In this document: piece by piece, positions 24,697 to 41,951 of the stretch
Position numbering within the stretch: position 1 is the first letter of the stretch
How the letters are laid out: the number at the start of each line of letters is the position of its first letter
Origin: an uncultured Bacillota bacterium
GTDB lineage: Bacteria; Bacillota_I; Bacilli_A; RF39; UBA660
Length of the DNA: 64,000 bases
Direction of reading: 5' to 3'
Assembly: GCA_947650795.1 (NCBI GenBank)
Contig: CANSWR010000001.1
Location: forward strand, 272 to 64,271
Notes under the pieces: model-generated
The model's input: the letters and a program-made list of their open reading frames with translations, nothing else
What the model was told of the DNA's origin: nothing
The model's database searches: none
Made by a program: the position numbers and the translations under genes

Positions 24697-25242
24697 TTAA
24701 TTGTTCATACAAAGATTTAATATATCTTCTTCTGAGATTTCTTTATTGTATCTATCATTATATTCTGATATAAAATTGTAAATATTATTAATATAATCAT
24801 CTATTGTAGTAGCATCCTTTAATAATTTTTCTTCTAATATTTCAATACCACCTAAAACATATTGTTCAAATATTTTATTGCATTCCTCTTTTTCTTCGGT
24901 TCCAGCATTATATCTAAATGCATTATCTAATCTATCCTCAATAGATAATTTATCCTTATTGTGAAGTAACATAATTAATTCATAATTAAAATTAAGTGTT
25001 TTAGATTCGCGGTTCATTTGATCAAAATTAATCTTTTTAACATTATCAGTTGCAGGTCCTTCATCATCTCTCTTGGACATTCTTCCATATAAATAACCGA
25101 CAATAGGAGCAATTATAAGAACATCAATATTTCTTTCAAATAATTTAAATTTTGTATCACTATCTATTTCAGTAGTTAACTGTGTAACAATATTAGCGTG
25201 TTTACCTTTAAAATTATAGTCACGTTCAAACATATTACTCAC
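24697..25242 (-). CDS. Hypothetical 181-aa protein, translationally coupled partner of the SMC-like ATPase (last gene of the cargo operon)
   Basis: Start overlaps the stop of 25235-27256 by 8 nt. No recognised motif. Confidence 0.4.
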   Translation of the reverse strand: MSNMFERDYNFKGKHANIVTQLTTEIDSDTKFKLFERNIDVLIIAPIVGYLYGRMSKRDDEGPATDNVKKINFDQMNRESKTLNFNYELIMLLHNKDKLSIEDRLDNAFRYNAGTEEKEECNKIFEQYVLGGIEILEEKLLKDATTIDDYINNIYNFISEYNDRYNKEISEEDILNLCMNN

Positions 25243-27256
25243 CTACCTTTGTAATTTTACTATCAACAGGATATTCCTTATCTCTTAATGATACTTCATA
25301 TTCTATACCAATCTTAGATTGCATTTCTTTCTTTGCAATATTACCATCAGAATCTTTTATAAAGATTATTACTTGCCTGGCAATATTTGGAATAACCTCA
25401 CATATATTTTTTATTCTTCTTTGGTCGAAAGATGAAAGTGGAGCATCCATAACTAATGGATATTCATCTGTAACAATACTAGATTCTTCTGTCTTATCAT
25501 TTACTTTTTGTTTAGCTAAATTAATAACTCCAACAATGAATGCAAATATAATTGAATAACTCTTTGCAGTATTTGCATCAATATTTGCACTATTATCTTG
25601 AAGTTCATTTACATATGAAGTTATTTTATACTTTTCATCAATATTAATCGTCATACCACCAGCATATATTTGTTTAAATAAATCGTTAATTTGATCTTCA
25701 AGTTTTTCTCTTGTTTTAGCCTCTTCAAAATCATATGTTTGTTTAAACTTATTATAAGCTGCTCTTGCATATAAGATTTGTTCTTCAATTGATTTATTCT
25801 TTTCAATCTTCATTTGCAATCTACTTATTTCAGCTTCGGCATCTTGTTTTTCTTTTTCTAACACACCATTTTGAATTTCTAATCTCTTAAGTTGATCTCT
25901 TAAATCTTTAACTGTATTTTCCATATCATTTTGTCTACTCTTAAGATCTTTAACTTTAGTATTAGATGATTTTAGAATTGATTTATCTATCTCACCTATT
26001 TGATGCTCGATTTCTTCAATTTTATTACTACATCCTCTAATTGTACTTAAAAGAGATTCGATATTAGAAAAATAATTATCACTACTTTTAACTAGCATTC
26101 CAGCCCTATCTTGGAATTGACTTATTGCACTACCTAATGATTGAGGAGGAATATATTTTAATAATTGCATTAATTCTTGAACAGCATCAGATGTAGGATC
26201 AGACAAATCGCATCCACAAATACATTTTTTTCTATTCATTAAGTATTTAATAGTTTCATCTCTAACAGATGGTATACCTTTATCTACATTATCAGTATTT
26301 TTTAATTCTATTAATGCATCATTAATTAACTTTCTAGACATAAAACTAAATGTCTGTTTAGTGAAATTACTCATTAATGTTGTAATTGTGTTATTTTTAT
26401 GATTAATCTCCATTTGAAGATTTGCATTTAATTGATTTAATTCTTGTTGTAGCTTTTCCGCTTCAGCAAATGATAAAATCTCTGCTTTAGCTTTTTCTAT
26501 TTCTTTATCATAATATGATAATTCATCTTCCATTTTATCAATTTGTTCAGAATTCTTATCAATTTTATCGGAATTTGTATATATTATTTCTCTTAATCTT
26601 CTAGTTTCACTATCTCCAGCTGCATCTAATTGTGCATTATATTTACCTATAACACTATTTTTTACATTAGGATTTAAATGTTCAATAGCTTTAGTTAAAG
26701 CAGTTAAACCAAGTATATTTTGAACAGCTGTTTTAAACTCTTCACTTTTACCGCTATTAACTTCTCCAGCCATTTTTTCAATTCTTTCACCATCAAAGAA
26801 GAAATATTTTGATAATGATTCTGGTAAAATATTAGCTATTGTAGACAAGTTCTTGATTGGATTAACTATTACTGTTTGTCCATCTGGTTGTTTTTGATAT
26901 ATTTCTAAAACTGGATTTTCAGGTTTAACATTTCCACTTGTATCTTTTTTATATGTTTGTTTACGTATTATAGTATAATCAACTTCATTGTGTTCTAATT
27001 CTAATTTTGCGAATACATTTTGTTCAGTTCCACCCATCATCTCTTTTTCAACAACACTATTTAACACAGATTTATTTTTAAATCCATCTGTTTTAGAATA
27101 TAAAACCCATTGAAAAGCTTGAGCTAATGTAGTTTTTCCTGCTCCATTTTCGGCCATAACAAGTGTTATATTTTTTTCCTTATCAGTAGAGAATTCAATA
27201 ACATGTTCACCTTTAAATGGTCTAAAATTAGTTAAAGTTAATTTTTTTAGCAACAT
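25235..27256 (-). CDS. DndD-like SMC/RecF-type ABC ATPase with long coiled coil
   Basis: N-terminal Walker A LVMAENGAGKTTLAQAF. A ~300-aa coiled-coil middle. C-terminal Walker B/D-loop YPLVMDAPLSSFDQRR, matching the DndD/PtuA-like pattern (hhhhD-x-P-L-x-x-x-D). Confidence 0.7.
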   Translation of the reverse strand: MLLKKLTLTNFRPFKGEHVIEFSTDKEKNITLVMAENGAGKTTLAQAFQWVLYSKTDGFKNKSVLNSVVEKEMMGGTEQNVFAKLELEHNEVDYTIIRKQTYKKDTSGNVKPENPVLEIYQKQPDGQTVIVNPIKNLSTIANILPESLSKYFFFDGERIEKMAGEVNSGKSEEFKTAVQNILGLTALTKAIEHLNPNVKNSVIGKYNAQLDAAGDSETRRLREIIYTNSDKIDKNSEQIDKMEDELSYYDKEIEKAKAEILSFAEAEKLQQELNQLNANLQMEINHKNNTITTLMSNFTKQTFSFMSRKLINDALIELKNTDNVDKGIPSVRDETIKYLMNRKKCICGCDLSDPTSDAVQELMQLLKYIPPQSLGSAISQFQDRAGMLVKSSDNYFSNIESLLSTIRGCSNKIEEIEHQIGEIDKSILKSSNTKVKDLKSRQNDMENTVKDLRDQLKRLEIQNGVLEKEKQDAEAEISRLQMKIEKNKSIEEQILYARAAYNKFKQTYDFEEAKTREKLEDQINDLFKQIYAGGMTINIDEKYKITSYVNELQDNSANIDANTAKSYSIIFAFIVGVINLAKQKVNDKTEESSIVTDEYPLVMDAPLSSFDQRRIKNICEVIPNIARQVIIFIKDSDGNIAKKEMQSKIGIEYEVSLRDKEYPVDSKITKVGE

Positions 27257-27453
27257 TTTATTTCCTCCTCTATGATTTTTTCAATTTTCTTCTTCATATC
27301 TTCATCATTTAATTCTCTAGTTTTAACATTATTGTTTTCTAAAGTTATAATGGTTCTTACAATTCTAGTTAACTTTTGGTTATCAATCATACTTTGTTGT
27401 TCAAAATTTTGATTTGATGATTGAGTTTCAGTTTTAACTTCTTCATTATTCAT
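27247..27453 (-). CDS. Small 68-aa protein overlapping both neighbours (operon linker protein)
   Basis: Overlaps the upstream stop by 8 nt and the downstream start by 10 nt. Acidic, ends in CC. Confidence 0.3.
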   Translation of the reverse strand: MNNEEVKTETQSSNQNFEQQSMIDNQKLTRIVRTIITLENNNVKTRELNDEDMKKKIEKIIEEEIKCC

Positions 27454-29641
27454 AATAGTTTACCTCCATATCCATTTCTTCTTCATCGTTATCATCCTCA
27501 TTTAATCTATAAGTATCAGTTAGCTCATATATTAACTTATCAGATTCCATTTTACTCATAGCTAATCTATTAAATTCAATCATACGATTAACTTCATTTC
27601 TTACCATTGACTTTTCACATTTTATTTCGTCATATGTTAAATTAATAGCTTCATCTAAAGGTCTTGGTAAAGTTATGAAATCATATATTATTGCAAATTC
27701 TTTTCCTGGATATTTTCTTAATACTCTACCTCGCCTTTGAATATATTCTTTTGGATTAGTTGTACTTGCTAAAATAAATGCCGTTTTTATAGCAGGAATA
27801 TTAACACCTTCATCTAAACATTTTATTGCAATTAACGCTTGTAAATAATCTCCATCAAAGAATTTTCTTCTTAATAAATCTCTAGTATAACTATCTTCTT
27901 TTGATGTAAATTGTGCAACATTCATTTTTAATTCTTTTCCAAGTAATTCTGTTATAGCATCTATTTGTCTCATATCTTCGCCATTTTCATCTTGCTCTGC
28001 AATTTTAGTAGCACCACAATAAACCAAGATATGATTATCATCTTTATAAGGTTTAATTTCTCTAGCAAGTGCTGATACTTTATTAAATGCGCCTGCAACT
28101 AATCTTGATCTCTTTTGAGCAATTATTTTACCTTTATCGGATAATTTAGTTTTGCCATTCTTTTTTAATATACATTTTGCAATTTCTTTTGATAAACTGT
28201 GATATTCATCTAATTCTTCATCGGTTAAATATACTACAATTGGGTGATATTGATATGGGGTTAAGAATTTTTCTCCATTTTTTCCTTTAATAGCATCTTC
28301 TAACGTAAACTCAATACATTTTTCACCAAAATAATCTAAAAGTGCTTGTGTTCCTTCTTCATCTCCATGACGTTCTAATGTTGCTGAAAGAGCTAATCTA
28401 TAATTAAATTTATCAGTTAGAGTCTTTTTTAAGTTTTCGGCACCAAAATTATGTGCTTCATCAACTACTAATAAAACATTTCCTCTTATATTATTAATCT
28501 GTGATTGAATATAATCTGTAGCAAAAGTACCGTTAGTACAAACAAAACAAAAGAAATTTCTTACACCTAGATTATAATCCATTATTGCCATTTTAATTCT
28601 TTGTTTAAAATCTTTTTGTTCAGAAGAACTGTGTCCAATAATTGGGTGGATATTAAAATTAATAATATCTTCTACCCATTGATTTACTAAATGCTGATAT
28701 GGGCAAACAATTACAACTGCCAATTTACCTTTTAAATCTTTATATAATCTCGTTATTGCTCCTAACCCAGTAAAAGTTTTACCTGTTCCTGTTGCCATAT
28801 CAAATATACCACTATAATTATTATGACTCCAATTTTCTATAGCTTCTTTTTGATAATCATGTAATGTAACTCCAGCAGGTATTTCTGGTGAATTAGTAAC
28901 AGTTTTTAATTTTTCTATTGTTAAATCTATATGTTTAGTACTAAATTCTTTTTGATCTATTTCCCAATCTATACTATCCTTTCTATAAGATAATAATTTA
29001 TTTTTTACAACTGTAGGAAAATCAAAAATCATAGCACTAGCATCATCATTTTTCCATAATTTGTTAAATGCATTCTCTTTCATTGAAACTCTTTCAGGAT
29101 CGCTCCATGAAGTAAAAACATCAACGATTTCATAATTATTAATAAATGCATTTTCAGATTCGTTCATAGAACCAGAGAAAGCAACTACATTTCCTTCAGT
29201 ATCATACATTAAACCAAGTTTCTCATGATACAAACCTAATTTCTCATTTTTTAATGAAAAAGCAATTTTTATATCCAATTTCTCTTGTGCTATTAAATTA
29301 GCTAATAAATTCAATCTCTCTTCTTCAAAATAATTTTGTGGTTCTGTTATATATTGCATTAGAGCTCGTTCTACAATATCTTCTCTTGCTTCATATCCTT
29401 TATTAATTGCTTCAATATCTTCTTCCGATAAATGTGGTGAGGCAATCAATTGGATTTTTCCATTGTTGTTAATTAAGTGTGTTATTCCATATGATATTTC
29501 TAATAAAGATGATGATGAGAAAAATCCAACACTTCTTTTATATAAATTTGATTCTTTTAATAAAGGAATATAGAAATCATTTACTATATTATCTCTAGGA
29601 GATCTATATTCTTGTTTTAAATTAACATCTAATAAACTCAT
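27446..29641 (-). CDS. PLD-family (HKD) nuclease domain fused to an SF2 DEAH-type helicase
   Basis: N-terminal HKD motif LGLYHEKLGLMYDTEGNVVAFSGSMNESENAF (H-x-K-x4-D...GSxN). Helicase motif I FDMATGTGKTFTG, motif II LLVVDEAHNFG, and C-terminal motif VI-like QRRGRVLRK. Confidence 0.7.
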   Translation of the reverse strand: MSLLDVNLKQEYRSPRDNIVNDFYIPLLKESNLYKRSVGFFSSSSLLEISYGITHLINNNGKIQLIASPHLSEEDIEAINKGYEAREDIVERALMQYITEPQNYFEEERLNLLANLIAQEKLDIKIAFSLKNEKLGLYHEKLGLMYDTEGNVVAFSGSMNESENAFINNYEIVDVFTSWSDPERVSMKENAFNKLWKNDDASAMIFDFPTVVKNKLLSYRKDSIDWEIDQKEFSTKHIDLTIEKLKTVTNSPEIPAGVTLHDYQKEAIENWSHNNYSGIFDMATGTGKTFTGLGAITRLYKDLKGKLAVVIVCPYQHLVNQWVEDIINFNIHPIIGHSSSEQKDFKQRIKMAIMDYNLGVRNFFCFVCTNGTFATDYIQSQINNIRGNVLLVVDEAHNFGAENLKKTLTDKFNYRLALSATLERHGDEEGTQALLDYFGEKCIEFTLEDAIKGKNGEKFLTPYQYHPIVVYLTDEELDEYHSLSKEIAKCILKKNGKTKLSDKGKIIAQKRSRLVAGAFNKVSALAREIKPYKDDNHILVYCGATKIAEQDENGEDMRQIDAITELLGKELKMNVAQFTSKEDSYTRDLLRRKFFDGDYLQALIAIKCLDEGVNIPAIKTAFILASTTNPKEYIQRRGRVLRKYPGKEFAIIYDFITLPRPLDEAINLTYDEIKCEKSMVRNEVNRMIEFNRLAMSKMESDKLIYELTDTYRLNEDDNDEEEMDMEVNYYE

Positions 29642-29653
29642 TTGTTCACCACC

Positions 29654-30781
29654 TTATAAAGATTCTAATGCATTAATTAATAAATCAATATCATTTTTTG
29701 TATTAAAGTAATTTAAACTAATTCTTACAGTACCATTATACTCCATAGAGCCAATAAAGTCATGTATTAACGGTGCACAATGATACCCAGTCCTTACGTA
29801 TATACTATATTCATCATCTAAAATAGATCCAACATCATCTGATGAATAATTATTTATTCCTATAGATACCATGCCAAATATACTCTCATATTTATCTGGT
29901 AAAAATAATTTAACTTTTTTTAATGTTTTTAATTTTTCAATTAAATAATCAGTCAACTCTTTTTCATGATTATAAATATCAACATTATTAAGCCAATCAA
30001 TACTTGCATCTAATCCACAAATAGCTACAATATTTGGGCTTCCAGCTTCATATCCATCAGGTATTGTATCTGGCATATTTGGGTTCATTGTGTCAGAACC
30101 AGTTCCACCAAAAAGACTTTGTTTCAATTTATCGCTTTTTAATTTAATATAACCAGCTATACCAAATGATGCATATAAAGATTTATGTCCAGCAAAAACT
30201 ATATAATTAATATCTTCACTATTCTTAATAGGAACAATTCCGTATCCCTGTGAAGCATCAAGTATATTTATAGAATTATATTTTTTTGTTAATTGAAATA
30301 TTTTATCATAAGGTAACACATATCCTGTAACATTACTTACTTGTGAAAGAAAAATAGCTGCCGGATTATGTATTGCAAACATATCACTAATTTTATCATA
30401 ATTAGGTTTCCAAGTTTGTTTATCAAAAGGAAGTGTTTCAATATTAATATGTATTCTTTTCTTTAATTCTTCCAATGGTCTAACTATTGAATTATGCTCA
30501 AAAGGTGAAATATAAACATAATCATTTTCTTTTAACTCTATTCCAAATATTAAATCATTCAATGCTACAGTTGCAGAATTTGTATAGATAACTTTTGCAT
30601 TTTTAATATTATTTAACTTTAGTATTTTATTTCTAACAGTCTCTTTTGCTTCAGATGCCTCTCTAGCACATTTATAGCTTCCTCTACCTGTATTAAATGC
30701 ATTTCTATTTGCTTTATCGAGTGCTATGTACACATTTTCAGGTTTGGGATATGTTGTTGCCGCATTATCTAAATATATCAT
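29654..30781 (-). CDS. Group II cysteine desulfurase (DndA/SspA-like sulfur donor for DNA phosphorothioation)
   Basis: Class-V aminotransferase fold. PLP-lysine motif FAGHKSL. Active-site Cys in RTGYHCAP (SufS/CsdA-type). Confidence 0.8.
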   Translation of the reverse strand: MIYLDNAATTYPKPENVYIALDKANRNAFNTGRGSYKCAREASEAKETVRNKILKLNNIKNAKVIYTNSATVALNDLIFGIELKENDYVYISPFEHNSIVRPLEELKKRIHINIETLPFDKQTWKPNYDKISDMFAIHNPAAIFLSQVSNVTGYVLPYDKIFQLTKKYNSINILDASQGYGIVPIKNSEDINYIVFAGHKSLYASFGIAGYIKLKSDKLKQSLFGGTGSDTMNPNMPDTIPDGYEAGSPNIVAICGLDASIDWLNNVDIYNHEKELTDYLIEKLKTLKKVKLFLPDKYESIFGMVSIGINNYSSDDVGSILDDEYSIYVRTGYHCAPLIHDFIGSMEYNGTVRISLNYFNTKNDIDLLINALESL

Positions 30782-30789: not shown

Positions 30790-33700
30790 TCACATATATT
30801 TTTTCATAATATCAATTAATACACTTATTTTTTCTTGTTCTGTTAATGAATCACCATATTCATTTATTATTTCTTCAATATTATTTTTCATTGTATTTCC
30901 TAATGCTGATAATTCATCACTGTTTGATAAATATTTTTCTATTTTTTCATCGCCACTTATTAAAGTAATTTTATTTGAACTATCAACACTGTTTTGATCT
31001 AATTCATTAATATTATTAATTATTTTTTCTAATTCTTCTTTAAAATTATTTATCTCATTAGGTTGCCAGTCTTCAATATAGAAACCTGTTACTATTTTTG
31101 ATATTTTTTCAATTATGTCATTTTCATCATGAGTAGTTAGTTCTTTAACATATTCAATTAGTTCTCTAGTCTTAATATCAAAAATCATATTAGATGATTC
31201 TAATTCATTATCAATTAACCAATCCTTTAATAGCGAATTTAAACTTCCCTTGTGATTTTTGTTAAATATTTCCTTAGTTTCCTTTATTACATACTCACAA
31301 TAAGAATTCATAAAACTATCAAAAGTTTGCTTCATATCCTTTATTAATTCTTTTATTTCTTCATAATTATTTGTACCAAATATTTCAATCAATTTTTGAT
31401 ATATAAATTCATTATTATTGATATCTGGTCTTAATAATTCATTTTTAATGATAATATATTTATCATTTATATTTAAATAATTGTAATCATTTGAATATTC
31501 TCTCAAAATTCTTGGTAAAGACAAAATCCATCTTCTCATTCCATCAACCAATTTTTTTAGATTAATTCTTTGATTATCAAGATTAGGAATATCATATATA
31601 TACATCAAATTTGATAAATATTTAATTTTGTCTGTTGTACCTTTTTCAGTTAAAATGTAATATTTTTCTGGATTATCATTTATTTTTATTAAATTATTGG
31701 CATCTAGATCTATTTCTTTATTCATAAAATAAATAATAATAATATCTGAATAATTGTAAAGAGCTATTGATAATAATATAGGAATAATTCCCTTTCTAAT
31801 ACTATAAGGTTTTGATTCTAATTTTTTATATAATTCACTAAAGCTCAATTTTTGGTTTTCACTATTTTCAACAAACGAATTTATTATCTTTAAAACTTCT
31901 TTAATTGATGATGTATTCTTTTTATCTACGATTGCTTTATAAATAGTAGCTTCAGCACTTGTCTTACTTTTTATTAAGGATAAGTCATTATTTAATACAG
32001 TATCAATTACAATATCTCTTGCTTTTTTTATTGGAGCGGATAGTTCTCTTTTATTTATCATTTCATTGTTGACTATAGGTGTTTTTGAATATATATCAAA
32101 GCATATATTAGATAAATATGAACTCAAATTTGTAACATTTTTATTTTTATTATTCATATATAAATATTCTTGTATGTTATCTGATGAAAAATATATTGAT
32201 AATTGTTCTATGAGTACTTCCATAGTTTCTTTCTTTATTAAAGAAAGTTCGTTATTAGTTTCGTCATTTTCTTTATTATTAATTAAATATTCTATCGATT
32301 TATACTCTCTTAATAATGAAACAATATTTTTAGGAAATATAGTTTTAGGTATTCTTAATACTACTCTATCATTTTTTAATTCAATAAAATGATCAATTAT
32401 ACTTTGTACATTTCTTGAATTCCTTATTAGATTAATAATAACACCATCGCAATAATTATTTTCAAATAAAATATCTAGATTTTTAATAGATAATAGTTCT
32501 TCTTCTGTCATATAAACATTATCAAAAAATCTTGTAATTTTAAATTCTTCATTATATCTACGTGGAAGAGAATATTTTTTTGTTTCTACCTCATTAATTA
32601 AATCTTTAATATTAATATCATAAAATTGATTTTCACTTAGTCTTTTAATTTCTTTAGATAATTCTCTATTGTATATATTAGTAAAATCAAGTTCATTTGT
32701 AATTTTTCTTCGTTTTATTATGCTTTTATCTATTAGTTTATTAATTATTTCTTCATATTTTGAAGAAGCCATATCAACTGATAATCTCAAAGTATTATCA
32801 TCAGGAACAAGTATTTCAGTCTCATTAATCATATAAATAATAGATAATGATTTAATTAAATCTTTTTCTTCTAACTCGTTGCATTTTGCTAAAGCATTTT
32901 CTGTCTTTAACCAAATATTCCTAATAACATCTGTTGTTTCTTTTTTGAAAAGAGGTCTAAAATAATCATATATCTTGCTAACATTAAATAATCCTTTACT
33001 GTTATTTGAAATAAAATACTTTAGTCCATTTTGATCATCATCAGTTAAAAACGTAAATAATGTTCTTTCATTTTGAGCTATTTTTTCAGATAATTGTATA
33101 AGACAGTATACTGTTAATGGATTTAATGGATAACATCCTCTATATAGAATATCTTCAATCTTATCTACATTTTTAAATATTGTTAATGATTTTATTTCAT
33201 CATATGTGTTTAAATATTTATTATAAAATGTATCAAATATTTCATCATATCCATCTTTTTTATTTAGAGCATATGAAACTATTTCATAGTTTTGCTCAAT
33301 ACTTCTATTAAAATATAATTCTTTAAATCTTCCTTCAACTGTTTTAAAAGCATTTAATTTGTCTTCTGTTAAATTTTTTGCATATTGATTGATTGTTTTA
33401 TGTGTTATACAACTTAAATGTATTTGTTCTGTTTCTCCAGTTCTATTTGCTAATTCAGCAAAATCTTGTAGTAATTTTAAGTCTTTCATCATATGTGAAT
33501 TTTCAACATATTCTAAAAATTTACTGAATTCATCAAATACAATGAACATTCCAGAATATCCATATTCAGTTATTTCGTGAGCCATATCTTTATATATTTT
33601 AACAATATCTGAATTAACTAATGGATTAAATTCTTGTCCATGTAATATACAACTATATACATTTTTAAATATTGCATAGTATTCTTCAGAATAATTTTTT

Positions 33701-34299
33701 AATCCCTGCTTTAAGTCTTTAAATGAACAATTATATTCAGATAAACATTTTTTAATTTCACTTATTACATCTTTATATTCATCTTCCCATTTTAAGATAA
33801 CTTTTAATGCAATATCAAAATAGGTATTTACTACTATAGATGAAAGTTTTTCTCTTTCTAATGACTCTGATAAAGCTAATAAGAATGCCTGATTTAAATC
33901 ACCATAATTACTATTAATGATAATTGGCATTAACTTAGTTTTTGTATCTCGTATATTTTTAATTAATTCATATGTATCGGAATCTACTTTTTTTATTTTA
34001 TTTAAAAAGATATCAATATCCTTTTTGTCTTCAGTATTATAGTTATTTAATAATGTGATAAGAACAAGTAATAAATGAGATTTACCTTTTCCATATGGGC
34101 CAATTAATGTAGTTGCTCTATTCTTAGAATTTAATACACTATTAAAATACTGGCCTAATAATTCACAACCATCTTTTGTGGGAATATACTCATTAATTTT
34201 TGATATGTTATTAATATCAAATTGCAAATTAACAGAGTATTGAAAATTCTCATTAACACTTATATAGTCTTTGTATTTCATACTATACACCTCATTCAA
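30790..34299 (-). CDS. Large P-loop ATPase of the DUF499-like class (SspC/BrxC-like)
   Basis: Walker A near the N-terminus: LIGPYGKGKSHLLLVL. 1169 aa, helical. Lies in the operon between the 281-aa gene and the desulfurase, as sspC does in sspABCD loci. No methyltransferase, PglZ or Lon nearby, so a BREX assignment is disfavoured. Confidence 0.5.
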   Translation of the reverse strand: MNEVYSMKYKDYISVNENFQYSVNLQFDINNISKINEYIPTKDGCELLGQYFNSVLNSKNRATTLIGPYGKGKSHLLLVLITLLNNYNTEDKKDIDIFLNKIKKVDSDTYELIKNIRDTKTKLMPIIINSNYGDLNQAFLLALSESLEREKLSSIVVNTYFDIALKVILKWEDEYKDVISEIKKCLSEYNCSFKDLKQGLKNYSEEYYAIFKNVYSCILHGQEFNPLVNSDIVKIYKDMAHEITEYGYSGMFIVFDEFSKFLEYVENSHMMKDLKLLQDFAELANRTGETEQIHLSCITHKTINQYAKNLTEDKLNAFKTVEGRFKELYFNRSIEQNYEIVSYALNKKDGYDEIFDTFYNKYLNTYDEIKSLTIFKNVDKIEDILYRGCYPLNPLTVYCLIQLSEKIAQNERTLFTFLTDDDQNGLKYFISNNSKGLFNVSKIYDYFRPLFKKETTDVIRNIWLKTENALAKCNELEEKDLIKSLSIIYMINETEILVPDDNTLRLSVDMASSKYEEIINKLIDKSIIKRRKITNELDFTNIYNRELSKEIKRLSENQFYDINIKDLINEVETKKYSLPRRYNEEFKITRFFDNVYMTEEELLSIKNLDILFENNYCDGVIINLIRNSRNVQSIIDHFIELKNDRVVLRIPKTIFPKNIVSLLREYKSIEYLINNKENDETNNELSLIKKETMEVLIEQLSIYFSSDNIQEYLYMNNKNKNVTNLSSYLSNICFDIYSKTPIVNNEMINKRELSAPIKKARDIVIDTVLNNDLSLIKSKTSAEATIYKAIVDKKNTSSIKEVLKIINSFVENSENQKLSFSELYKKLESKPYSIRKGIIPILLSIALYNYSDIIIIYFMNKEIDLDANNLIKINDNPEKYYILTEKGTTDKIKYLSNLMYIYDIPNLDNQRINLKKLVDGMRRWILSLPRILREYSNDYNYLNINDKYIIIKNELLRPDINNNEFIYQKLIEIFGTNNYEEIKELIKDMKQTFDSFMNSYCEYVIKETKEIFNKNHKGSLNSLLKDWLIDNELESSNMIFDIKTRELIEYVKELTTHDENDIIEKISKIVTGFYIEDWQPNEINNFKEELEKIINNINELDQNSVDSSNKITLISGDEKIEKYLSNSDELSALGNTMKNNIEEIINEYGDSLTEQEKISVLIDIMKKYM

Positions 34300-35137
34300 A
34301 ATGTTCTTTCATAATCTCATCAATTGACATTTTTGTCGTAAAATAAATCATATTCAATCCAGCAGTTCTATTAATAACGATTAAATCTTGTTTTTTCATT
34401 TCATCTAAATATTCATTTATTAGATTTTTATCTAAATTTAATAGTTTAGCTGGGCTATTATCTAATTTTATTAAGTCATCAATACTTAAATAATCTTTAT
34501 CCTCAGATAAAATAACCATCAAATAATAAACAATCAAATAATTTAAATTTCTAAAATCCGGTTTTACTCTTTCATAGGCATTTATATCCACTTTTTTAAT
34601 TAGATTTAATTCAGATAAAGGACAAATAAAATTATTTTCTGGATTATCGATTTTTTCATCAATAGAATATGTTTTTATAATCATATTAACTTCATCTTGT
34701 AAAATATTCTCACTATATTCTAATTTATTATTATTTAAAATTTGTGATATTTGTTCAAAAATATCTCTTTTTGAAAACACTTTCATTGTACATTTATTAA
34801 AAAACAAGTTATAAATATATGAATCTTCAATATTTAAAATCATTTTAATATGTATTAACCACCATGAAAAATTATCTTCTAAATATGGATCATATTTATC
34901 AATTAATTCACCAAACTTAGATAATGTGATAGAACGATTATTTTCTTCAATAAGACAAGTTGCAGACATCCAATATTTTAAGGATTTAACCATATTTGTA
35001 CCAATGCCTAATATATCTGTTGCATCAGCAGAAGAAAATGCTTTAGAATCTTCTTTTATTGTTCTAATCCCTTTTGCTAACCATCCCTCTCTAATTGAAA
35101 AACTTTCATGTCTTTTCATTTTTACTTTATTAATCAT
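34292..35137 (-). CDS. 281-aa protein in the position and size of SspB (DUF4007-like candidate DNA nicking/targeting subunit)
   Basis: Overlaps the downstream ATPase gene by 8 nt and follows the PAPS-reductase gene by 4 nt. Assigned from context and size only. Confidence 0.3.
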   Translation of the reverse strand: MINKVKMKRHESFSIREGWLAKGIRTIKEDSKAFSSADATDILGIGTNMVKSLKYWMSATCLIEENNRSITLSKFGELIDKYDPYLEDNFSWWLIHIKMILNIEDSYIYNLFFNKCTMKVFSKRDIFEQISQILNNNKLEYSENILQDEVNMIIKTYSIDEKIDNPENNFICPLSELNLIKKVDINAYERVKPDFRNLNYLIVYYLMVILSEDKDYLSIDDLIKLDNSPAKLLNLDKNLINEYLDEMKKQDLIVINRTAGLNMIYFTTKMSIDEIMKEHFE

Positions 35138-35141: not shown

Positions 35142-36893
35142 TTACTCCTTATCTTGTTTAGTTCTTAATACCTTTTTCATATAGCATCCACCACTAAAAT
35201 GTTTAACACATTCTAAACATCCTATACACTTCTTTTCATTTATCGTATATGATATATCAAATTTTTCTCCATCTTGTTTATTATTATGTTTAATTGTAAT
35301 TGCATCATATTTGCAAACACTTTCACAAGCCATACATCCAATACATGTTTGAAATTTTGTAATTTGGTTTTTTATAAGCATTTCACGAATTTTAGGATTG
35401 CTAAATACTTTAGTTTCCTTTAAAACAGAAACCTTTAAAAGTTTTTGTCCTACTTTACCAGTTAATTTTAATATTGGCTCTTTCGTTCTTTTATCTAAGA
35501 TATATACTTCTCCTAATCTCTTATTTCCAATATTAAAATCAAGTAATCCAAATGGCTTGAACAATTCGTACAATGTGTCATTAATTGGTTTATTTAAATC
35601 AAAATTAAATGCATTTTCTTCTAATACACAAGGTTTAAAAGATAGTATTGCATTTTCACTATAATTTAATCCATTCCCACCTTGTCTGGCTTTCCATCCA
35701 CCAGAAGAAATATATTCTTTTGGATCTGGTTTGCCGATTTGTGCAGCAAAATCTAATAATATATCATGAAATTTAATATATTCATCTTCCATATATATAC
35801 TGGATAAATATTCAGACCAATAGGAATTATTTGGGCAACACCAGCATCCAACCCTTGAAAATCCTTTTCTATAGGCACTATTAAATGGTATTTTTCTTGT
35901 TAATATATATAGCCACACATCAAAATCCATCCAGTCAATAATTGGTGCTACTGTTTCTTGCTTAGTTATTTTTGCACCTTTACTCTCCCTATCATATTTA
36001 CTACGAGCAATTGATTCGTTTCTCCTTAATCCTTGAAAAGTTAAAATTTTAGTTTTATTTTTAAAAGTTGCATCTATTTTTCTAGTAATGGAGCCTGTTT
36101 TGAAAATAGTACAACACCATCTCATCATTCTACTTGGAGGGCCTATAACTTTGCATAATTCATTAAAATTCTGTTCTTTATTTTTCGCTACAAGTAAAGG
36201 TGTTGTAGGGTGTATTTTTTTGAATTCTTGTAAATAATCTCCTGTCTCAGGATATTCAAGAGTTGTATCTCCATAGATGTGTATTATCTTATCTGTTCCC
36301 AATGAATTCATTACCAAATCACTTGTTACCGTAGAATCTTTACCACCTGAAAAAGAAACAAACATTGAATCTACATTGTATTTTTTTGAAATGTTTTTTA
36401 TGTAATCATGTGCTTCAGTAACAATTGAGCTATATCTGACACTATTTGCTTCAATGAATTTTCTTATATATGATTCTTCATAAAATGACTCAACATATTT
36501 TTGATTTTCTTTTTCGTTTTCTTGAATTATTTTTTTAACATCTTTATAATTAATATTATTAACAATATTTTTTACAGAAAATTTTATTTTTTCACCATTT
36601 ACAAAATAATAATTACCAGAAGTATTCCATACTGACTTTCCCACATATTTAAAAGGTTCTTTTTCAATAGCCTCTAATAATAATCTTTCTTGAGGAAATA
36701 CAGGCCTTATATCTGTTCCTATATACTCGGATTTCTTTCCACATATAGAGCAAACATTGTCAAATAAAGGTATATTACAATGTTTGCAATAATATATTTC
36801 AGATTTATCAATATAAGTTCTATTATTGCATACAGGACAGGTACTTGATTCACATATTAAATTGTCACAGTTACTACATACATATTTAATCAC
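35142..36893 (-). CDS. PAPS-reductase/ATP-pyrophosphatase family protein (DndC/SspD-like) with N-terminal 4xCxxC zinc ribbons and C-terminal double [4Fe-4S] ferredoxin motif
   Basis: PP-loop FVSFSGGKDSTVTSDL. N-terminal CSNC...CPVC...CKHC...CSIC. C-terminal CIGCMACESVC and CIGCLECVKHFSGGC. Confidence 0.75.
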   Translation of the reverse strand: MIKYVCSNCDNLICESSTCPVCNNRTYIDKSEIYYCKHCNIPLFDNVCSICGKKSEYIGTDIRPVFPQERLLLEAIEKEPFKYVGKSVWNTSGNYYFVNGEKIKFSVKNIVNNINYKDVKKIIQENEKENQKYVESFYEESYIRKFIEANSVRYSSIVTEAHDYIKNISKKYNVDSMFVSFSGGKDSTVTSDLVMNSLGTDKIIHIYGDTTLEYPETGDYLQEFKKIHPTTPLLVAKNKEQNFNELCKVIGPPSRMMRWCCTIFKTGSITRKIDATFKNKTKILTFQGLRRNESIARSKYDRESKGAKITKQETVAPIIDWMDFDVWLYILTRKIPFNSAYRKGFSRVGCWCCPNNSYWSEYLSSIYMEDEYIKFHDILLDFAAQIGKPDPKEYISSGGWKARQGGNGLNYSENAILSFKPCVLEENAFNFDLNKPINDTLYELFKPFGLLDFNIGNKRLGEVYILDKRTKEPILKLTGKVGQKLLKVSVLKETKVFSNPKIREMLIKNQITKFQTCIGCMACESVCKYDAITIKHNNKQDGEKFDISYTINEKKCIGCLECVKHFSGGCYMKKVLRTKQDKE

Positions 36894-39839: not shown

Positions 39840-41951
39840 CTATTTCATACCTAAACTTAAGTTAGGATTTTCATTAAATATATTTATTATTGTTTTTTTA
39901 TTTTCTTCTTTTACTTCTGTATGGTAAAATTCAGATTTAATTTTTGTATTTAAAAATGATTTTTCTTTTTGAATCATATTTCTATTAACTGTTACTTTCA
40001 TATAAGCCCTATGATTTGTTGTAACATTATATTTAATATCAAAATCAGTTTTAAATATCTTCTCAATTATGATTTCAACTGGTTTTAAATTCTCTTTATC
40101 AGCAAGTTCTAAAGCATCATAATATTCTTTAGAAACCTTGTTATCCCTTGATCTCTTATTTTTAACTTCATGCTTAATATCTTCAACAGTAAAATATGTA
40201 CTAGATAGGTTTTTCAATGGATTTAGTATTCTTCCAACTGTACCTGATTCATAGCAACTAAACTTACTATATAAAACAGTATCTCTAAATATAGGAAATC
40301 CTATGATTGGAAAAATAATTGTTTTGTAGTGTAACTGTTTTACTTCCTCTGGTGTCATTAAATCTCTACCAATTAAATTAGTAGATTTATCACCATTATA
40401 ATTCATTAAAGACATAGATTGCCTTACACTATTAGATTCAATAGTTTTTTTACCTAACCGTTTTGAAATTGCTTCTGCTGTTTCTTGGGTATTAGTTTTA
40501 AGATATACCAATCCACAGTTATCAAGAATAATCTGTGCAACATCTTTACCATATACATTATCTAATTGAGAAAAAGATTGAATAAAAAAATGAAAATGCA
40601 TTCCCCTCGATCTTGCAACAGATACTATTGCTTCTATATCAGCAAGTGGAGGACAGTTAGCAAATTCATCAAGAATAAAGTCTATTTCTAAAGGCAATTT
40701 CTTTTTCTCATTACTATTAGCAAGTTTTACTAAATTCCTATACAATAATCCGACTATAATAGTTACAAGAGTAAAATATGTTTTATCTTCATCTGGAACT
40801 ATAACATATAAAGCAACTGGTTCTTTGCCTAAAACATTAAATTCAAAATCACTTGTACTGGTAACATTTGCAACATTAATGTCATCAAATATATTCATTT
40901 TTTGACCAAACACTGCTGTAATAGATTTATATGTATTATCACTAGCACTTAATATACTCACTAATGCATCTTTAGATTTACTACCATATTCTTTAGTATT
41001 GATATAATCTTTAAACTTTTTAAAGTTATTTTCTTCCATAGAACTATTTTGAAATTTTCTAATACTAGTCATAGTAATCTTATCTCTGGTAATATTACCT
41101 TCTTTATACTCTTCTAAAAAAAGTCCAATTAGTCCTTCTAATAAATTTTTTGCAGAATTATTCCAAAAAGGATCTTTTTGCTCTACTTTTTCTTGCATCA
41201 CCATCGTTGATAAAGAAGATATAAGTCTATTTGTTTCAGCATAATGTGACATAGATTCATTATTCATTGATATTTTCCTATTTTTCAACTTATCTATTAT
41301 CTCTTTGTTGCTTTTAATTTTATTATTAATCCTGGAAATATTGATAACACTTAATTTAAGTTTTTTTAACTTATCATTTAACATATCATTTTGTTCAATA
41401 TATGGATTTATAGTATTTTGAATTTCAATAGATTTATTTTCAAATTTAATACATTCTTCATATTCTTTGATAATCGGATCTAATATATTTATCTTATTTG
41501 ATAATTCTGGATTTCTAAAATCTATAGTTAATATTTTATAACCTTGATTTTGAAACATCTTTGATGTAGTTTGATAAATCTCTCCTTTTGGATCAGTGAT
41601 AAAAACACTTCGTTTCTTTTTTGCTTTTGAAATAAAAGTACAAGTAGGAATTACTGCTGTTACACTTTTACCACTTCCAGTTGAACCTAAATAGACATAA
41701 TGGGGTGTTTCTCTGTCAAAATAAACATATTTTAAGTCTTTGCTAAAAGAAACAGGGAATCCTGCTTCAATAATATGATTAACCTTTTCTTTTTTAAAGT
41801 TACTTCTTATTTCAGATTCTGTACTAAATCTTGCTGATCCATATTCATTATCATTTTTTACTTTATGCTTCATTAGTAATGGTTCAAGATAAATAAATCC
41901 TAACAAAAAAGCTATTAAAATTACAAGTAAGACAATTAGAATGGTATTCAT
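39840..41951 (-). CDS. Type IV secretion coupling protein (VirD4/TraG/TcpA-like T4CP)
   Basis: N-terminal TM helix. Walker A YLGSTGSGKSVTAVIPT. 703 aa, typical of conjugative coupling ATPases. Confidence 0.75.
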   Translation of the reverse strand: MNTILIVLLVILIAFLLGFIYLEPLLMKHKVKNDNEYGSARFSTESEIRSNFKKEKVNHIIEAGFPVSFSKDLKYVYFDRETPHYVYLGSTGSGKSVTAVIPTCTFISKAKKKRSVFITDPKGEIYQTTSKMFQNQGYKILTIDFRNPELSNKINILDPIIKEYEECIKFENKSIEIQNTINPYIEQNDMLNDKLKKLKLSVINISRINNKIKSNKEIIDKLKNRKISMNNESMSHYAETNRLISSLSTMVMQEKVEQKDPFWNNSAKNLLEGLIGLFLEEYKEGNITRDKITMTSIRKFQNSSMEENNFKKFKDYINTKEYGSKSKDALVSILSASDNTYKSITAVFGQKMNIFDDINVANVTSTSDFEFNVLGKEPVALYVIVPDEDKTYFTLVTIIVGLLYRNLVKLANSNEKKKLPLEIDFILDEFANCPPLADIEAIVSVARSRGMHFHFFIQSFSQLDNVYGKDVAQIILDNCGLVYLKTNTQETAEAISKRLGKKTIESNSVRQSMSLMNYNGDKSTNLIGRDLMTPEEVKQLHYKTIIFPIIGFPIFRDTVLYSKFSCYESGTVGRILNPLKNLSSTYFTVEDIKHEVKNKRSRDNKVSKEYYDALELADKENLKPVEIIIEKIFKTDFDIKYNVTTNHRAYMKVTVNRNMIQKEKSFLNTKIKSEFYHTEVKEENKKTIINIFNENPNLSLGMK

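What the first reader, a model, noticed from the sequence alone, without database searches (positions are those of the whole stretch)
35142..36893. DndC/SspD-like PAPS-reductase enzyme with extra N-terminal zinc ribbons and C-terminal double ferredoxin motif
Canonical DndC/SspD proteins carry the PP-loop domain and a cysteine-ligated cluster. They do not typically carry four N-terminal CxxC pairs plus two C-terminal CxxCxxCxxxC ferredoxin-type motifs (CIGCMACESVC, CIGCLECVKHFSGGC). The added Fe-S and Zn modules suggest a built-in electron-transfer or DNA-binding function, which would make this a divergent family member.
Basis: seen in the sequence. Interest (0 to 1): 0.55.

Follow-up and report, generated by a model that had tools for sequence, protein, structure and literature searches.

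The report
Long-form SspD phosphorothioation enzyme, known type
This gene encodes the sulfur-inserting enzyme of a DNA phosphorothioate (sulfur-for-oxygen backbone) defence system; its extra iron-sulfur and zinc modules are real, but they are the normal, already described make-up of a large "long SspD / BrxP-like" enzyme family common in gut anaerobes.

Summary
ORF 35142-36893 (-) encodes a 583-aa protein with four N-terminal CxxC pairs, a PP-loop PAPS-reductase domain and two C-terminal ferredoxin-type Cys motifs.

The gene is the first of an sspD-sspB-sspC-sspA operon, followed directly by pbeA-B-C-D, on a conjugative element. Canonical proteobacterial-type SspD proteins are only 264-299 aa and lack these modules.

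It is not a divergent oddity:
- It belongs to a very large family: 389 clusters (50% identity) at E<1e-30.
- Its best defence-library match is BrxP of type 4 BREX (2.3e-84).
- In 93 diverse relatives, all eight ferredoxin Cys are kept in 88-90.
- An APS-reductase-type CC...CxxC cluster site is kept in 89-93.
- The second zinc ribbon is kept in about 70-75. The first is kept in about 5 of the 93 and is intact in 26 of 80 species-representative loci.
- The same operon recurs in about 40 of those 80 loci.

A 2026 paper already describes the alpha+beta plus 4Fe-4S ferredoxin extension in BrxP and "a subset of SspD", with its role unknown.

Most likely function: ATP-dependent sulfur insertion into DNA. 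The ferredoxin domain probably relays electrons to the catalytic cluster; that step is inferred.

Verdict: new member of a known kind, modest interest.

The parts
35142..36893 (-). sspD, long form (BrxP-like), 583 aa: PP-loop sulfurtransferase of the phosphorothioation module
   Evidence: ORF with RBS. Pfam PAPS_reduct plus Fer4_7. PADLOC BrxP 2.3e-84 over residues 55-581; SspD 9.5e-12 and DndC 2.5e-11 match the PP-loop core only. AF2 model pLDDT 89.3, pTM 0.87.
36810..36884 (-). Zinc ribbon 1 (residues 4-28; C6, C9, C19, C22), restricted to a subclade
   Evidence: Sequence. Beta-hairpins E3-6, E12-14 and E27-30 in the model. Kept in about 5-6 of 93 diverse relatives. Four intact CxxC pairs in 26 of 80 loci, of which 21 also have both ferredoxin motifs.
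36717..36797 (-). Zinc ribbon 2 (residues 33-59; C36, C39, C48, C51), family-wide, followed by the conserved D-x-RPVF motif
   Evidence: Kept in 69-75 of 93 relatives, and in 66-71 of the 78 stand-alone proteins. Mostly absent from the 15 DUF4007 fusions. Strands E33-36, E41-43 and E56-59 in the model.
36369..36716 (-). N-terminal beta/helical extension (residues 60-175) preceding the PP-loop domain
   Evidence: pLDDT above 90; H67-76, E88-98, H107-169. Covered by the BrxP model and by the archaeal PRK13795-type NCBIfam models. Absent from short SspD.
35823..36368 (-). PAPS-reductase / PP-loop ATP pyrophosphatase domain (residues 176-357) with SGGKDS and a CC...CxxC cluster site (C260, C261, C350, C353)
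   Evidence: Pfam 4.6e-33. G184-K185-D186-S187, C260, C350 and C353 are invariant in 50 sequences of 25-51% identity. C260/261 and C350/353 align with the ECC and GCEPC Cys of APS reductase 2goy. Foldseek best hit is 2goy, TM (target) 0.71.
35364..35822 (-). Helical linker plus alpha+beta domain (residues 358-510), including the conserved loop Cys C422 (KPC)
   Evidence: Secondary structure E418-490 and H500-516. C422 is kept in 60 of 78 stand-alone relatives. Literature calls this domain Mog1p/PsbP-like (PMC12839542). I did not test the fold assignment.
35169..35363 (-). 2x[4Fe-4S] ferredoxin-type domain (residues 511-575): C517/520/523/527 and C556/559/562/570
   Evidence: Pfam Fer4 and Fer4_7 above cut-off. 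Similar to complex I TYKY/NuoI. All eight Cys are invariant in alignment A2 and kept in 88-90 of 93 relatives.
34292..35137 (-). sspB (DUF4007, DNA-binding/nicking partner)
   Evidence: Pfam DUF4007 3.3e-74. PADLOC SspB 1.9e-52. Adjacent to sspD in most related loci.
30790..34299 (-). sspC (P-loop ATPase related to BrxC)
   Evidence: PADLOC SspC 2.5e-104; BrxC 6.4e-28. Conserved synteny.
29654..30781 (-). sspA (class V aminotransferase-fold cysteine desulfurase, the sulfur donor)
   Evidence: Pfam Aminotran_5 2.6e-63. PADLOC SspA 8.8e-28 and DndA 8.8e-27.
27446..29641 (-). pbeA (PLD/HKD nuclease fused to an SF2 helicase), presumed restriction effector
   Evidence: PADLOC PbeA 3.8e-249; Pfam ResIII, Helicase_C and PLDc_2.
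27247..27453 (-). pbeB-like small ORF (68 aa) between pbeA and pbeC
   Evidence: ORF list. Position matches the 'small rapidly evolving protein' PbeB in PMC10853773. No homology test was done.
25235..27256 (-). pbeC (CxC-type ABC/SMC-like ATPase, DndD-like)
   Evidence: PADLOC PbeC 1.5e-108. Pfam AAA_23. CICGC motif in the sequence.
24697..25242 (-). pbeD-like (181 aa), by position the DndE cognate
   Evidence: No family hit. Homologues follow pbeC in L007, L008, L031, L035, L044, L047 and L052. Assigned by position only.

Best explanation
The gene encodes the long form of SspD, the PP-loop (PAPS-reductase-fold) sulfurtransferase of an SspABCD-type DNA phosphorothioation module. The module here is written sspD-B-C-A and is coupled to a PbeABCD restriction module on a conjugative element.

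Proposed working:
1. SspA strips sulfur from cysteine as a persulfide and passes it to SspD. This follows the Vibrio/Shewanella Ssp system.
2. SspB (DUF4007) and SspC (ATPase) find and open the DNA target.
3. SspD uses its intact SGGKDS PP-loop to spend ATP and activate the backbone phosphate, then delivers sulfur to give a phosphorothioate. This is inferred from the PP-loop thiolase family and from the demonstrated BrxP/BrxC-dependent phosphorothioate synthesis.
4. The catalytic domain carries an APS-reductase-type [4Fe-4S] site (C260, C261, C350, C353).
5. The C-terminal 2x[4Fe-4S] ferredoxin domain most likely forms an electron relay from a cellular low-potential donor to that site or to a persulfide, possibly on the conserved loop Cys422. 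That would supply the two electrons needed to release sulfide from the persulfide. This step is inferred, not shown.
6. The N-terminal zinc ribbon(s) are most likely nucleic-acid or partner-docking modules, as in TtuA/NcsA-type thiolases. The first ribbon looks like a tandem copy of the second. Both points are inferred.

The architecture is the standard one of the BrxP/long-SspD clade, not a novelty of this locus.
For: Identity and context:
- Pfam PAPS_reduct plus Fer4_7.
- PADLOC BrxP 2.3e-84 over residues 55-581, against SspD and DndC at about 1e-11.
- Neighbours are SspB, SspC and SspA, then PbeA and PbeC.
- The same sspD-B-C-A operon (or the order B-C-D-A) occurs in about 40 of 80 species-representative loci, and pbeA and/or pbeC follow in about 27 of them.

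Conservation:
- The PP-loop, C260/C350/C353 and all eight ferredoxin Cys are invariant in 50 sequences of 25-51% identity. Counts in 93 relatives are.

Cluster site:
- C260/261 and C350/353 align with the [4Fe-4S] ligand motifs of APS reductase 2goy. 2goy is also the best structural match.

Literature:
- BrxP is effectively an SspD-SspB fusion, and BrxP plus BrxC make phosphorothioates in Bacteroides (PMC12914056).
- BrxP and a subset of SspD carry an alpha+beta domain plus a conserved 4Fe-4S ferredoxin-type region of unknown role (PMC12839542).
- SspA binds SspD (PMC7188994).

Distribution:
- Long forms were found mostly in anaerobe lineages: gut Clostridia, Treponema, Fibrobacter, methanogens, Desulfonema, Syntrophomonadaceae.
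- The three short forms I examined came from Vibrio, Agrobacterium and Thermomicrobium.
- This fits an oxygen-sensitive, ferredoxin-fed variant.
Against: - No biochemical data exist for any long SspD. The electron-relay role is inference from domain type alone.
- I could not read model coordinates, so cluster-to-cluster distances were not measured.
- In APS reductase the CC...CxxC cluster is not thought to cycle redox states, so a relay feeding it is not a given.
- Short SspD works without a ferredoxin domain, so the domain is not intrinsically required for phosphorothioation.
- The second ferredoxin motif has non-classical spacing (Cx7C).
- The canonical PADLOC SspD model matches only weakly (43 bits). 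'SspD' here is therefore assigned by operon position and function, not by membership of the characterised short clade.
- Archaeal homologues with the same architecture sit among housekeeping-looking genes (L057, L074). The fold is therefore not exclusive to DNA phosphorothioation.
Confidence: 0.8

Rival explanations
1. The ferredoxin domain is not an electron wire. It is a structural or sensory module, for example an oxygen/redox sensor that switches phosphorothioation off when the clusters degrade, or a scaffold for docking SspA or SspC.
For: - Short SspD proteins perform phosphorothioation with no such domain (PMC7188994).
- The authors who described the domain state that its role is unclear (PMC12839542).
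- The skew of long forms towards anaerobes fits a sensor as well as it fits a relay.
Against: - All eight Cys of a classical dicluster fold are nearly invariant over sequences down to 25% identity.
- The nearest sequence relatives of the domain are true electron-transfer subunits, TYKY/NuoI.
- The domain is always attached to a catalytic domain that itself keeps a four-Cys cluster site.
Confidence: 0.2
2. The protein is a sulfur-assimilation or RNA-thiolation enzyme (an APS/PAPS reductase with built-in ferredoxin, or a TtuA/NcsA-like thiolase) that only happens to lie next to defence genes.
For: - It has the APS-reductase-type CC...CxxC site, and its best PDB structural matches are APS/PAPS reductases followed by TtuA.
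- Archaeal homologues of the same architecture sit in housekeeping-looking neighbourhoods (L057, L074).
Against: - It scores far below the curated cut-offs of the CysH/APS reductase models (45-54 bits against 154-235).
- Gene order with sspB, sspC and sspA is conserved in about 40 loci across phyla.
- It overlaps or abuts sspB in one operon on a mobile element.
- Its best library match is BrxP, whose family has been shown genetically to be needed for phosphorothioate synthesis (PMC12914056).
Confidence: 0.04
3. It is a component of a type 4 BREX system (BrxP proper) rather than of an Ssp system.
For: - The PADLOC BrxP model is by far the best hit (282 bits).
- SspC also matches BrxC models.
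Against: - It is not fused to DUF4007, which is a separate gene.
- No PglZ or BrxL appeared among the operon genes or the ten flanking ORFs scanned. The downstream genes are sspA and pbeA-D instead.
- The true fusion proteins are only 26-32% identical and form a separate group of loci, L056-L080.
Confidence: 0.03

Closest known systems
BrxP, the PAPS-reductase-DUF4007 fusion of type 4 BREX (PADLOC PDLC02510; shown to be required with BrxC for phosphorothioate synthesis in Bacteroides, PMC12914056)
   Same: - Same N-terminal extension, PP-loop domain, alpha+beta domain and 2x[4Fe-4S] ferredoxin region. The model aligns over residues 55-581.
- The eight ferredoxin Cys and the C260/C350/C353 site are kept in all 15 fusion proteins examined.
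- The partner ATPase is related (SspC/BrxC).
   Different: - DUF4007 is a separate downstream gene here.
- No PglZ or BrxL was found in the genes scanned.
- Most of the fusions examined lack the N-terminal zinc ribbon and Cys422.
- Identity to the fusion loci is only 26-32%.
Canonical short SspD of SspABCD-SspE (Vibrio cyclitrophicus FF75 type; PADLOC PDLC02782, 277 positions)
   Same: - Same operon partners (SspA, SspB/DUF4007, SspC) and the same PP-loop core.
- C260, C350 and C353 are conserved.
- Presumably the same reaction.
   Different: - Short SspD is 264-299 aa and starts at the PP-loop.
- It has no zinc ribbons, no N-terminal extension, no alpha+beta domain and no ferredoxin domain.
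- It has RWCT instead of RWCC, and a C-terminal CxxC-x-K tail.
- The model match is only 43 bits over 127 residues.
DndC (TIGR03183), the PP-loop [4Fe-4S] sulfurtransferase of DndABCDE
   Same: PP-loop ATP pyrophosphatase fold, an Fe-S cluster, a cysteine desulfurase partner, and phosphorothioate DNA as product.
   Different: - It scores 38 bits against a cut-off of 290.
- DndC works with DndD/DndE, not with DUF4007/SspC.
- BrxP-type enzymes lack the DndC-specific Cys dyad and add the alpha+beta and ferredoxin regions (PMC12839542).
Assimilatory APS reductase (PDB 2goy, Pseudomonas aeruginosa)
   Same: - Best structural match, TM (target) 0.71.
- The unusual tandem-Cys plus CxxC [4Fe-4S] ligand set aligns with C260/C261 and C350/C353.
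   Different: - About 20% identity and below all family cut-offs.
- No ferredoxin domain or zinc ribbons.
- Different substrate and pathway; different genomic context.
TtuA / NcsA / TtcA tRNA thiolases (PDB 5b4e, 5mkp, 6scy)
   Same: PP-loop domain with a [4Fe-4S] cluster used in sulfur transfer, flanked by CxxC zinc fingers. They are structural hits. They give a precedent for zinc fingers helping a PP-loop thiolase hold a nucleic acid.
   Different: - Their cluster has three Cys ligands.
- They have no dicluster ferredoxin domain.
- Their substrate is RNA, and they have no defence-operon context.
Archaeal PRK13795-type 'hypothetical' PAPS-reductase proteins (NCBIfam NF010366-NF010369)
   Same: - Best NCBIfam hits (1.4e-57 to 7.6e-48), spanning the N-terminal extension through to the ferredoxin region.
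- Two archaeal genome loci found by homology to the window protein (L057, L074; not scored against these models) show the same zinc ribbon, RPVF motif and two ferredoxin motifs.
   Different: - Scores lie far below the equivalog cut-offs (195 against 745 bits).
- Those two archaeal loci lack sspB/sspC neighbours and sit among housekeeping-looking genes.
- Their function is unknown.

Membership tests
SspD (sulfurtransferase of SspABCD phosphorothioation systems), in the functional/operon sense | PAPS-reductase-fold PP-loop ATP pyrophosphatase domain with an intact SGGKDS motif | tested here: met
   Pfam PF01507, 4.6e-33. SFSGGKDS at 180-187. G184-S187 invariant in A2.
SspD (sulfurtransferase of SspABCD phosphorothioation systems), in the functional/operon sense | Encoded in one operon with SspB (DUF4007), SspC (P-loop ATPase) and usually SspA (cysteine desulfurase) | tested here: met
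   The same arrangement occurs in about 40 of 80 related loci.
SspD (sulfurtransferase of SspABCD phosphorothioation systems), in the functional/operon sense | Sequence membership of the experimentally characterised short SspD clade | tested here: not met
   PADLOC SspD reaches only 43 bits over residues 179-305. Short SspDs are 264-299 aa, 24% identical and lack all the extra modules.
SspD (sulfurtransferase of SspABCD phosphorothioation systems), in the functional/operon sense | ATP pyrophosphatase activity and phosphorothioate formation in DNA | not testable with these tools
   Needs enzymology and LC-MS or PT-seq.
BrxP / long-SspD clade (PAPS reductase + alpha+beta + Fer4) | Full-length similarity to the BrxP profile across the PAPS, alpha+beta and Cys-rich regions | tested here: met
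   PDLC02510, 2.3e-84, residues 55-581 onto model positions 21-517 of 779.
BrxP / long-SspD clade (PAPS reductase + alpha+beta + Fer4) | Conserved C-terminal 4Fe-4S ferredoxin-type Cys-rich region | tested here: met
   Fer4_7 33.7 bits against a cut-off of 27. Eight Cys invariant in A2 and kept in 88-90 of 93 relatives.
BrxP / long-SspD clade (PAPS reductase + alpha+beta + Fer4) | Alpha+beta (Mog1p/PsbP-like) domain between the PAPS and Fer4 regions | tested here: inconclusive
Type 4 BREX (brxP-brxC-pglZ-brxL) | PAPS reductase fused to DUF4007; PglZ and BrxL in the cluster | tested here: not met
   DUF4007 is a separate ORF. No PglZ or BrxL hit among the four operon proteins and ten flanking ORFs scanned with Pfam and PADLOC. 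The rest of the window was not scanned for them.
DndC (TIGR03183) | Score above the equivalog cut-off; DndD/DndE partners in the modification module | tested here: not met
   38.4 bits against a cut-off of 290.4. The modification partners are SspB and SspC. The DndD/DndE-like proteins here belong to the Pbe module.
Assimilatory APS/PAPS reductase (CysH; TIGR02055, TIGR00434, NF002537) | Score above the family cut-off | tested here: not met
   45-54 bits against cut-offs of 154-235. The context is a defence operon.
Assimilatory APS/PAPS reductase (CysH; TIGR02055, TIGR00434, NF002537) | CC...CxxC [4Fe-4S] ligand set of the APS-reductase subclass | tested here: met
   Alignment to 2goy puts C260/261 on the ECC motif and C350/353 on GCEPC. 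This is a shared feature, not sufficient for membership.
2x[4Fe-4S] bacterial-type ferredoxin domain (Pfam Fer4_7 / Fer4) | Two CxxCxxCxxxC(P) motifs in about 55-60 residues | tested here: met
   The first motif is canonical (517-527). The second is CxxCxxCx7C (556-570), and neither is followed by Pro. Pfam scores are above cut-off. Iron content is not testable here.
Zinc ribbon (rubredoxin-like Cys4 knuckles) | Two CxxC knuckles on beta-hairpins, conserved in relatives | tested here: met
   Both ribbons are modelled as three short strands each. Ribbon 2 is kept in 69-75 of 93 relatives and ribbon 1 in about 5-6 of 93. No Pfam zinc-ribbon family hit at E<0.1. Metal binding is not testable here.

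The most novel reading that the evidence does not exclude
The long SspD/BrxP clade may make phosphorothioates by a truly different, reductive chemistry. A three-cluster wire (two ferredoxin clusters plus the APS-reductase-type cluster) would be fed by low-potential ferredoxin. It would reductively cleave an enzyme persulfide, perhaps on Cys422, to deliver sulfide to the activated backbone phosphate. DNA phosphorothioation in anaerobes would then be coupled to, and gated by, cellular redox state. In this reading the duplicated N-terminal zinc ribbon of the gut-Firmicute subclade would be a DNA- or SspB/SspC-docking head. None of this is excluded by my evidence, and none of it is shown.
Probability: 0.3. 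Interest if true: 0.55.

Novelty: new member of a known kind. Interest (0 to 1): 0.3.

Why it matters
For this window the result is mainly a correct annotation. It shows a complete eight-gene Ssp-Pbe phosphorothioate restriction-modification system carried on a conjugative element of a low-GC organism whose nearest relatives are gut Clostridia.

More broadly, the analysis shows that phosphorothioation systems have two clearly distinct SspD classes:
- A minimal form of about 280 aa, seen in Vibrio, Agrobacterium and Thermomicrobium.
- A form of about 530-590 aa with three predicted [4Fe-4S] sites and one or two zinc ribbons, seen mostly in anaerobes and shared with BrxP of type 4 BREX.

All biochemistry so far was done on the short class or on DndC. 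What the ferredoxin domain does is an open question acknowledged in the literature (PMC12839542). The long form is the prevalent one in the gut-associated genomes and MAGs that dominated the related loci here. If it draws on cellular reducing power, that would matter for how phosphorothioate epigenetics respond to redox state in the gut. The locus itself adds no new principle.

Tried and rejected
- Megablast of 30-40 kb of the window against plasmids found no match, so the element and host stay unidentified beyond 'Clostridia-like'. The closest species-representative locus is L001, 77% identical, from a Hadza gut MAG.
- The first AF2 model, built on 38 close homologues, was too poor in the Cys-rich regions (pLDDT 70). 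I replaced it with a model on a more diverse alignment (pLDDT 89.3).
- Model coordinates are not exposed to scripts, so no inter-cluster distances could be measured.
- The original Ssp paper (PubMed 32251370) is not held. I established the length of canonical SspD from annotated plasmid loci instead. It agrees with the 5.2-kb span of the ssp query region given for V. cyclitrophicus FF75 in PMC7464106.
- A tblastn of SspD against plasmids gave few informative hits.
- Considered and rejected: CysH-type assimilatory reductase, DndC, and BrxP proper. See the membership tests.
- Considered: the zinc ribbon substitutes for covalent fusion to DUF4007, since the ribbon is absent from most fusions. This is weakened because 3-4 of the 15 fusions keep the ribbon, and because archaeal stand-alone homologues without sspB neighbours also have it.
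- The 800-aa HTH protein upstream was considered as a system component. It recurs only in the closest locus, L001, so it is not counted.
Full report
**1. Observation**

The minus-strand ORF 35142-36893 is intact. It is 583 aa, starts at GTG and has an AGGAGG site about 8 nt upstream.
- Four N-terminal CxxC pairs: C6/9, C19/22, C36/39, C48/51.
- The PP-loop SFSGGKDS at 180-187.
- CIGCMACESVC at 517-527 and CIGCLECVKHFSGGC at 556-570.

Pfam gives PAPS_reduct at 177-355 (4.6e-33) and Fer4/Fer4_7 at 516-564, both above their gathering scores. No Pfam zinc-ribbon family matched at E<0.1.

**2. Context**

The gene heads a co-directional, tightly packed minus-strand cluster:
- sspD (this gene).
- sspB, DUF4007, 3.3e-74 (34292-35137).
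- sspC, PADLOC 2.5e-104 (30790-34299).
- sspA, a class V cysteine desulfurase (29654-30781).
- pbeA, a PLD nuclease fused to an SF2 helicase, PADLOC 3.8e-249 (27446-29641).
- A 68-aa pbeB-like ORF (27247-27453).
- pbeC, a CxC-type ABC ATPase with a CICGC motif (25235-27256).
- A 181-aa pbeD-like ORF (24697-25242).

Upstream lie an 800-aa HTH protein, a type IV coupling protein, a relaxase and a VirB4-like ATPase. Downstream lies a large serine recombinase. The system is therefore cargo of a conjugative element in DNA of about 25% GC.

**3. Which family**

- In the defence library the best match by far is BrxP of type 4 BREX: 2.3e-84, with residues 55-581 aligned to model positions 21-517 of 779.
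- The SspD model (277 positions) and the DndC models match only the PP-loop core, at about 1e-11.
- NCBIfam's best hits are the archaeal PRK13795-type 'hypothetical protein' models. CysH, APS reductase and DndC all score far below their cut-offs.
- Published work explains the BrxP match. BrxP is in effect an SspD-SspB fusion, and BrxP plus BrxC are the minimal genes for phosphorothioate synthesis in Bacteroides (PMC12914056).

**4. Are the extra modules unusual?**

Relative to the characterised short SspD, yes. Relative to the protein's own family, no.

Annotated Ssp loci show SspD of only 264-299 aa:
- Vibrio scophthalmi pVS127: SspA, DUF4007, a split SspC, SspD, then a DUF262 SspE-like gene.
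- An Agrobacterium plasmid.
- The Thermomicrobium megaplasmid.

These short proteins begin at the PP-loop and lack the ribbons, the N-terminal extension, the alpha+beta domain and the ferredoxin domain. The 5.2-kb span of the V. cyclitrophicus FF75 ssp query region quoted in PMC7464106 fits the same size.

The window protein's own family is very large:
- An exhaustive search of representatives of 50%-identity clusters found 3077 at E<1e-3 and 389 at E<1e-30.
- The first 120 hits at 90% clustering are nearly all 583 aa and 68-99% identical.

Cys conservation in the 93 near-full-length representatives:

| Site | Kept in (of 93) |
|---|---|
| Eight ferredoxin Cys | 88-90 |
| C260 | 93 |
| C261 | 89 |
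| C350 | 92 |
| C353 | 92 |
| Ribbon 2 (C36/39/48/51) | 69-75 |
| Ribbon 1 (C6/9/19/22) | about 5-6 |
| C422 | 64 |

In a 50-sequence alignment at 25-51% identity, the invariant columns include the PP-loop, C260, C350, C353 and all eight ferredoxin Cys.

The roughly 770-830-aa fusion proteins (BrxP proper) keep the ferredoxin Cys but mostly lack the ribbon and C422.

The 2026 NAR paper from the Aravind group states that the BrxP PAPS reductase carries an extra alpha+beta (Mog1p/PsbP-like) domain. [quoted passage not shown] The paper adds that the same arrangement occurs in a subset of SspD (PMC12839542, section 34 and supplement).

**5. Conservation of the system**

A scan of one genome per species returned 80 loci. 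I searched their ORFs with the window's proteins.

- L001-L055 encode stand-alone proteins that are 35-77% identical. Wherever enough flanking DNA is present, almost all show sspD-sspB-sspC-sspA. Six show the order sspB-sspC-sspD-sspA.
- About 27 of these continue straight into pbeA and/or pbeC, and seven also have the 181-aa pbeD-like gene.
- L056-L080 are fusion proteins, 26-32% identical, several followed by a BrxC-like ATPase.
- Hosts are mostly anaerobes: gut Clostridia, Lachnospiraceae, Erysipelotrichaceae, Christensenellaceae, Treponema, Fibrobacter, Methanobrevibacter, Desulfonema and Syntrophomonadaceae. There are a few others.
- Four intact N-terminal CxxC pairs occur in 26 of the 80 loci, and three pairs in a further 10. 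The double ribbon is therefore a common subclade trait.
- The two ribbons share the pattern Y-x-C-x2-C-x8-9-C-x2-C-x3-5-Y-I, which suggests a tandem duplication. This is my inference from the sequence.
- Two archaeal homologues (L057 Bathyarchaeota, L074 Thermoproteales) have the ribbon, the RPVF motif and both ferredoxin motifs, but no ssp neighbours. The architecture probably predates its use in defence. This is also an inference.

**6. Structure**

With a more diverse alignment (58 sequences) AlphaFold2 gave mean pLDDT 89.3 and pTM 0.87. The model shows:
- Two three-stranded ribbons (residues 3-30 and 33-59).
- A confident beta/helical extension (60-175).
- The Rossmann-like PP-loop domain (176-357).
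- A helical linker, then an alpha+beta unit (about 418-516).
- The small ferredoxin unit.

Foldseek against the PDB returns APS reductase 2goy as best match (TM of the target 0.71). After it come CysH/PAPS reductases, the FAD synthase PAPS domain, and the [4Fe-4S] tRNA thiolases TtuA and NcsA.

A sequence alignment to 2goy places C260-C261 on its 'ECC' motif and C350/C353 on 'GCEPC'. From my own knowledge these are the four [4Fe-4S] ligands of that enzyme. The protein therefore probably binds three [4Fe-4S] clusters and two zinc ions.

**7. Mechanism**

Shown here, or shown elsewhere for relatives:
- PP-loop ATP pyrophosphatase fold with an intact motif.
- Operon with a cysteine desulfurase, DUF4007 and an SspC ATPase.
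- SspA-SspD complex formation in the short system (PMC7188994).
- BrxP/BrxC-dependent phosphorothioate synthesis (PMC12914056).

Inferred:
- SspD accepts persulfide sulfur from SspA.
- It activates the target phosphate with ATP and transfers sulfur.
- The ferredoxin dicluster relays electrons from a cellular donor to the catalytic cluster or to a persulfide, possibly on C422. C422 lies in the lower-confidence stretch just before the alpha+beta domain (block-mean pLDDT 68-73 over residues 401-430).
- The ribbons hold DNA or a partner.

The anaerobe bias of the long form and the presence of the short form in aerobes or facultative organisms fit an oxygen-sensitive, ferredoxin-fed variant. Only three short-form loci were inspected.

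The main rival is a structural or sensory role for the domain. Assimilatory reductase, tRNA thiolase, DndC and BrxP proper fail the membership tests.

**8. Verdict**

The gene is a typical long-form SspD (BrxP-like) in an Ssp-Pbe phosphorothioate restriction-modification system. The ferredoxin extension is family-wide and already published. Only the duplicated zinc ribbon and the tight Ssp-Pbe coupling were not described in the papers I read, and both are widespread in public genomes. It is a new member of a known kind. Interest is modest (0.3) and rests on the still-unknown role of the Fe-S extension, not on this particular locus.

Noticed in passing
window 24697-30781 (-), directly downstream of sspA: A complete pbeA-pbeB-pbeC-pbeD-like module follows sspDBCA in one co-directional block: a PLD-helicase, a 68-aa small ORF, a CxC ABC ATPase and a 181-aa DndE-position protein. 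The same Ssp-then-Pbe arrangement recurs in about 27 of the related loci across Clostridia, Treponema, Fibrobacter, Lutibacter and Methanobrevibacter. The papers I read describe Pbe with Dnd genes, or with 'PT-modifying genes' in general. I did not find this Ssp-Pbe operon described explicitly.
   Followed up: partly
L081:12308-13207 and L082:12199-13038 (short SspD of Vibrio scophthalmi and Agrobacterium): Short SspD proteins have RWCT instead of RWCC (one Cys fewer at the cluster site). They end in a conserved C-x2-C-[YH]-K tail. That tail could supply the missing ligand or a persulfide relay, doing in the short form what the extension does in the long form. This was not tested.
   Followed up: no
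L057:9980-11533 and L074:5762-7606: Archaeal homologues (Bathyarchaeota, Thermoproteales) have the same zinc ribbon, RPVF motif, PAPS domain and two ferredoxin motifs. Their neighbours look like housekeeping genes, judged only from ORF starts, and no ssp or brx neighbours were detected. They probably belong to the uncharacterised PRK13795-type group and may represent the ancestral, non-defence role of this architecture.
   Followed up: partly
window 37018-39420 (-): An 800-aa protein with a single sigma-70 region 4 / HTH match (residues 212-237) lies 124 nt upstream of sspD on the same strand, with a weak resemblance to MzaA. It recurs only in the closest locus, L001, and in no other Ssp locus. 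Its function is unknown. It may be a regulator or cargo of the mobile element.
   Followed up: partly
window 19872-21554, 39840-51853 and 55213-57927 (all -): Hallmarks of an integrative conjugative element surround the defence genes: a large serine recombinase, a T4SS coupling protein, a relaxase, a VirB4/TraG-like ATPase, and a SpaA/thioester-domain surface adhesin.
   Followed up: partly
window 61136-63983 (-), running off the window end: A JetD C-terminal-domain protein and an SbcC/Rad50-like Walker B ATPase lie side by side. This suggests a Wadjet (JetABCD) anti-plasmid system, a second defence cargo on the same element.
   Followed up: no
window 11502-15047 (-): A Cpn60/TCP-1-family chaperonin-like protein (517 aa) lies in one block with a 248-aa ORF and a radical SAM protein (418 aa). 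This is an unusual pairing and is unexplained.
   Followed up: no
window 5644-10716 (-): A 1690-aa secreted-type protein with a peptidase M60 (enhancin-like) domain, fn3 and F5/8 type C domains. It fits a mucin-degrading gut organism.
   Followed up: no
L085 (Treponema saccharophilum plasmid pTS1), about 7300-9000: The long sspD homologue (41% identical) is missing from the PLSDB gene table, while its sspB, sspC and sspA neighbours are listed. There the Ssp module is followed by a different helicase / ATP-binding / PLD trio rather than pbeABCD.
   Followed up: no
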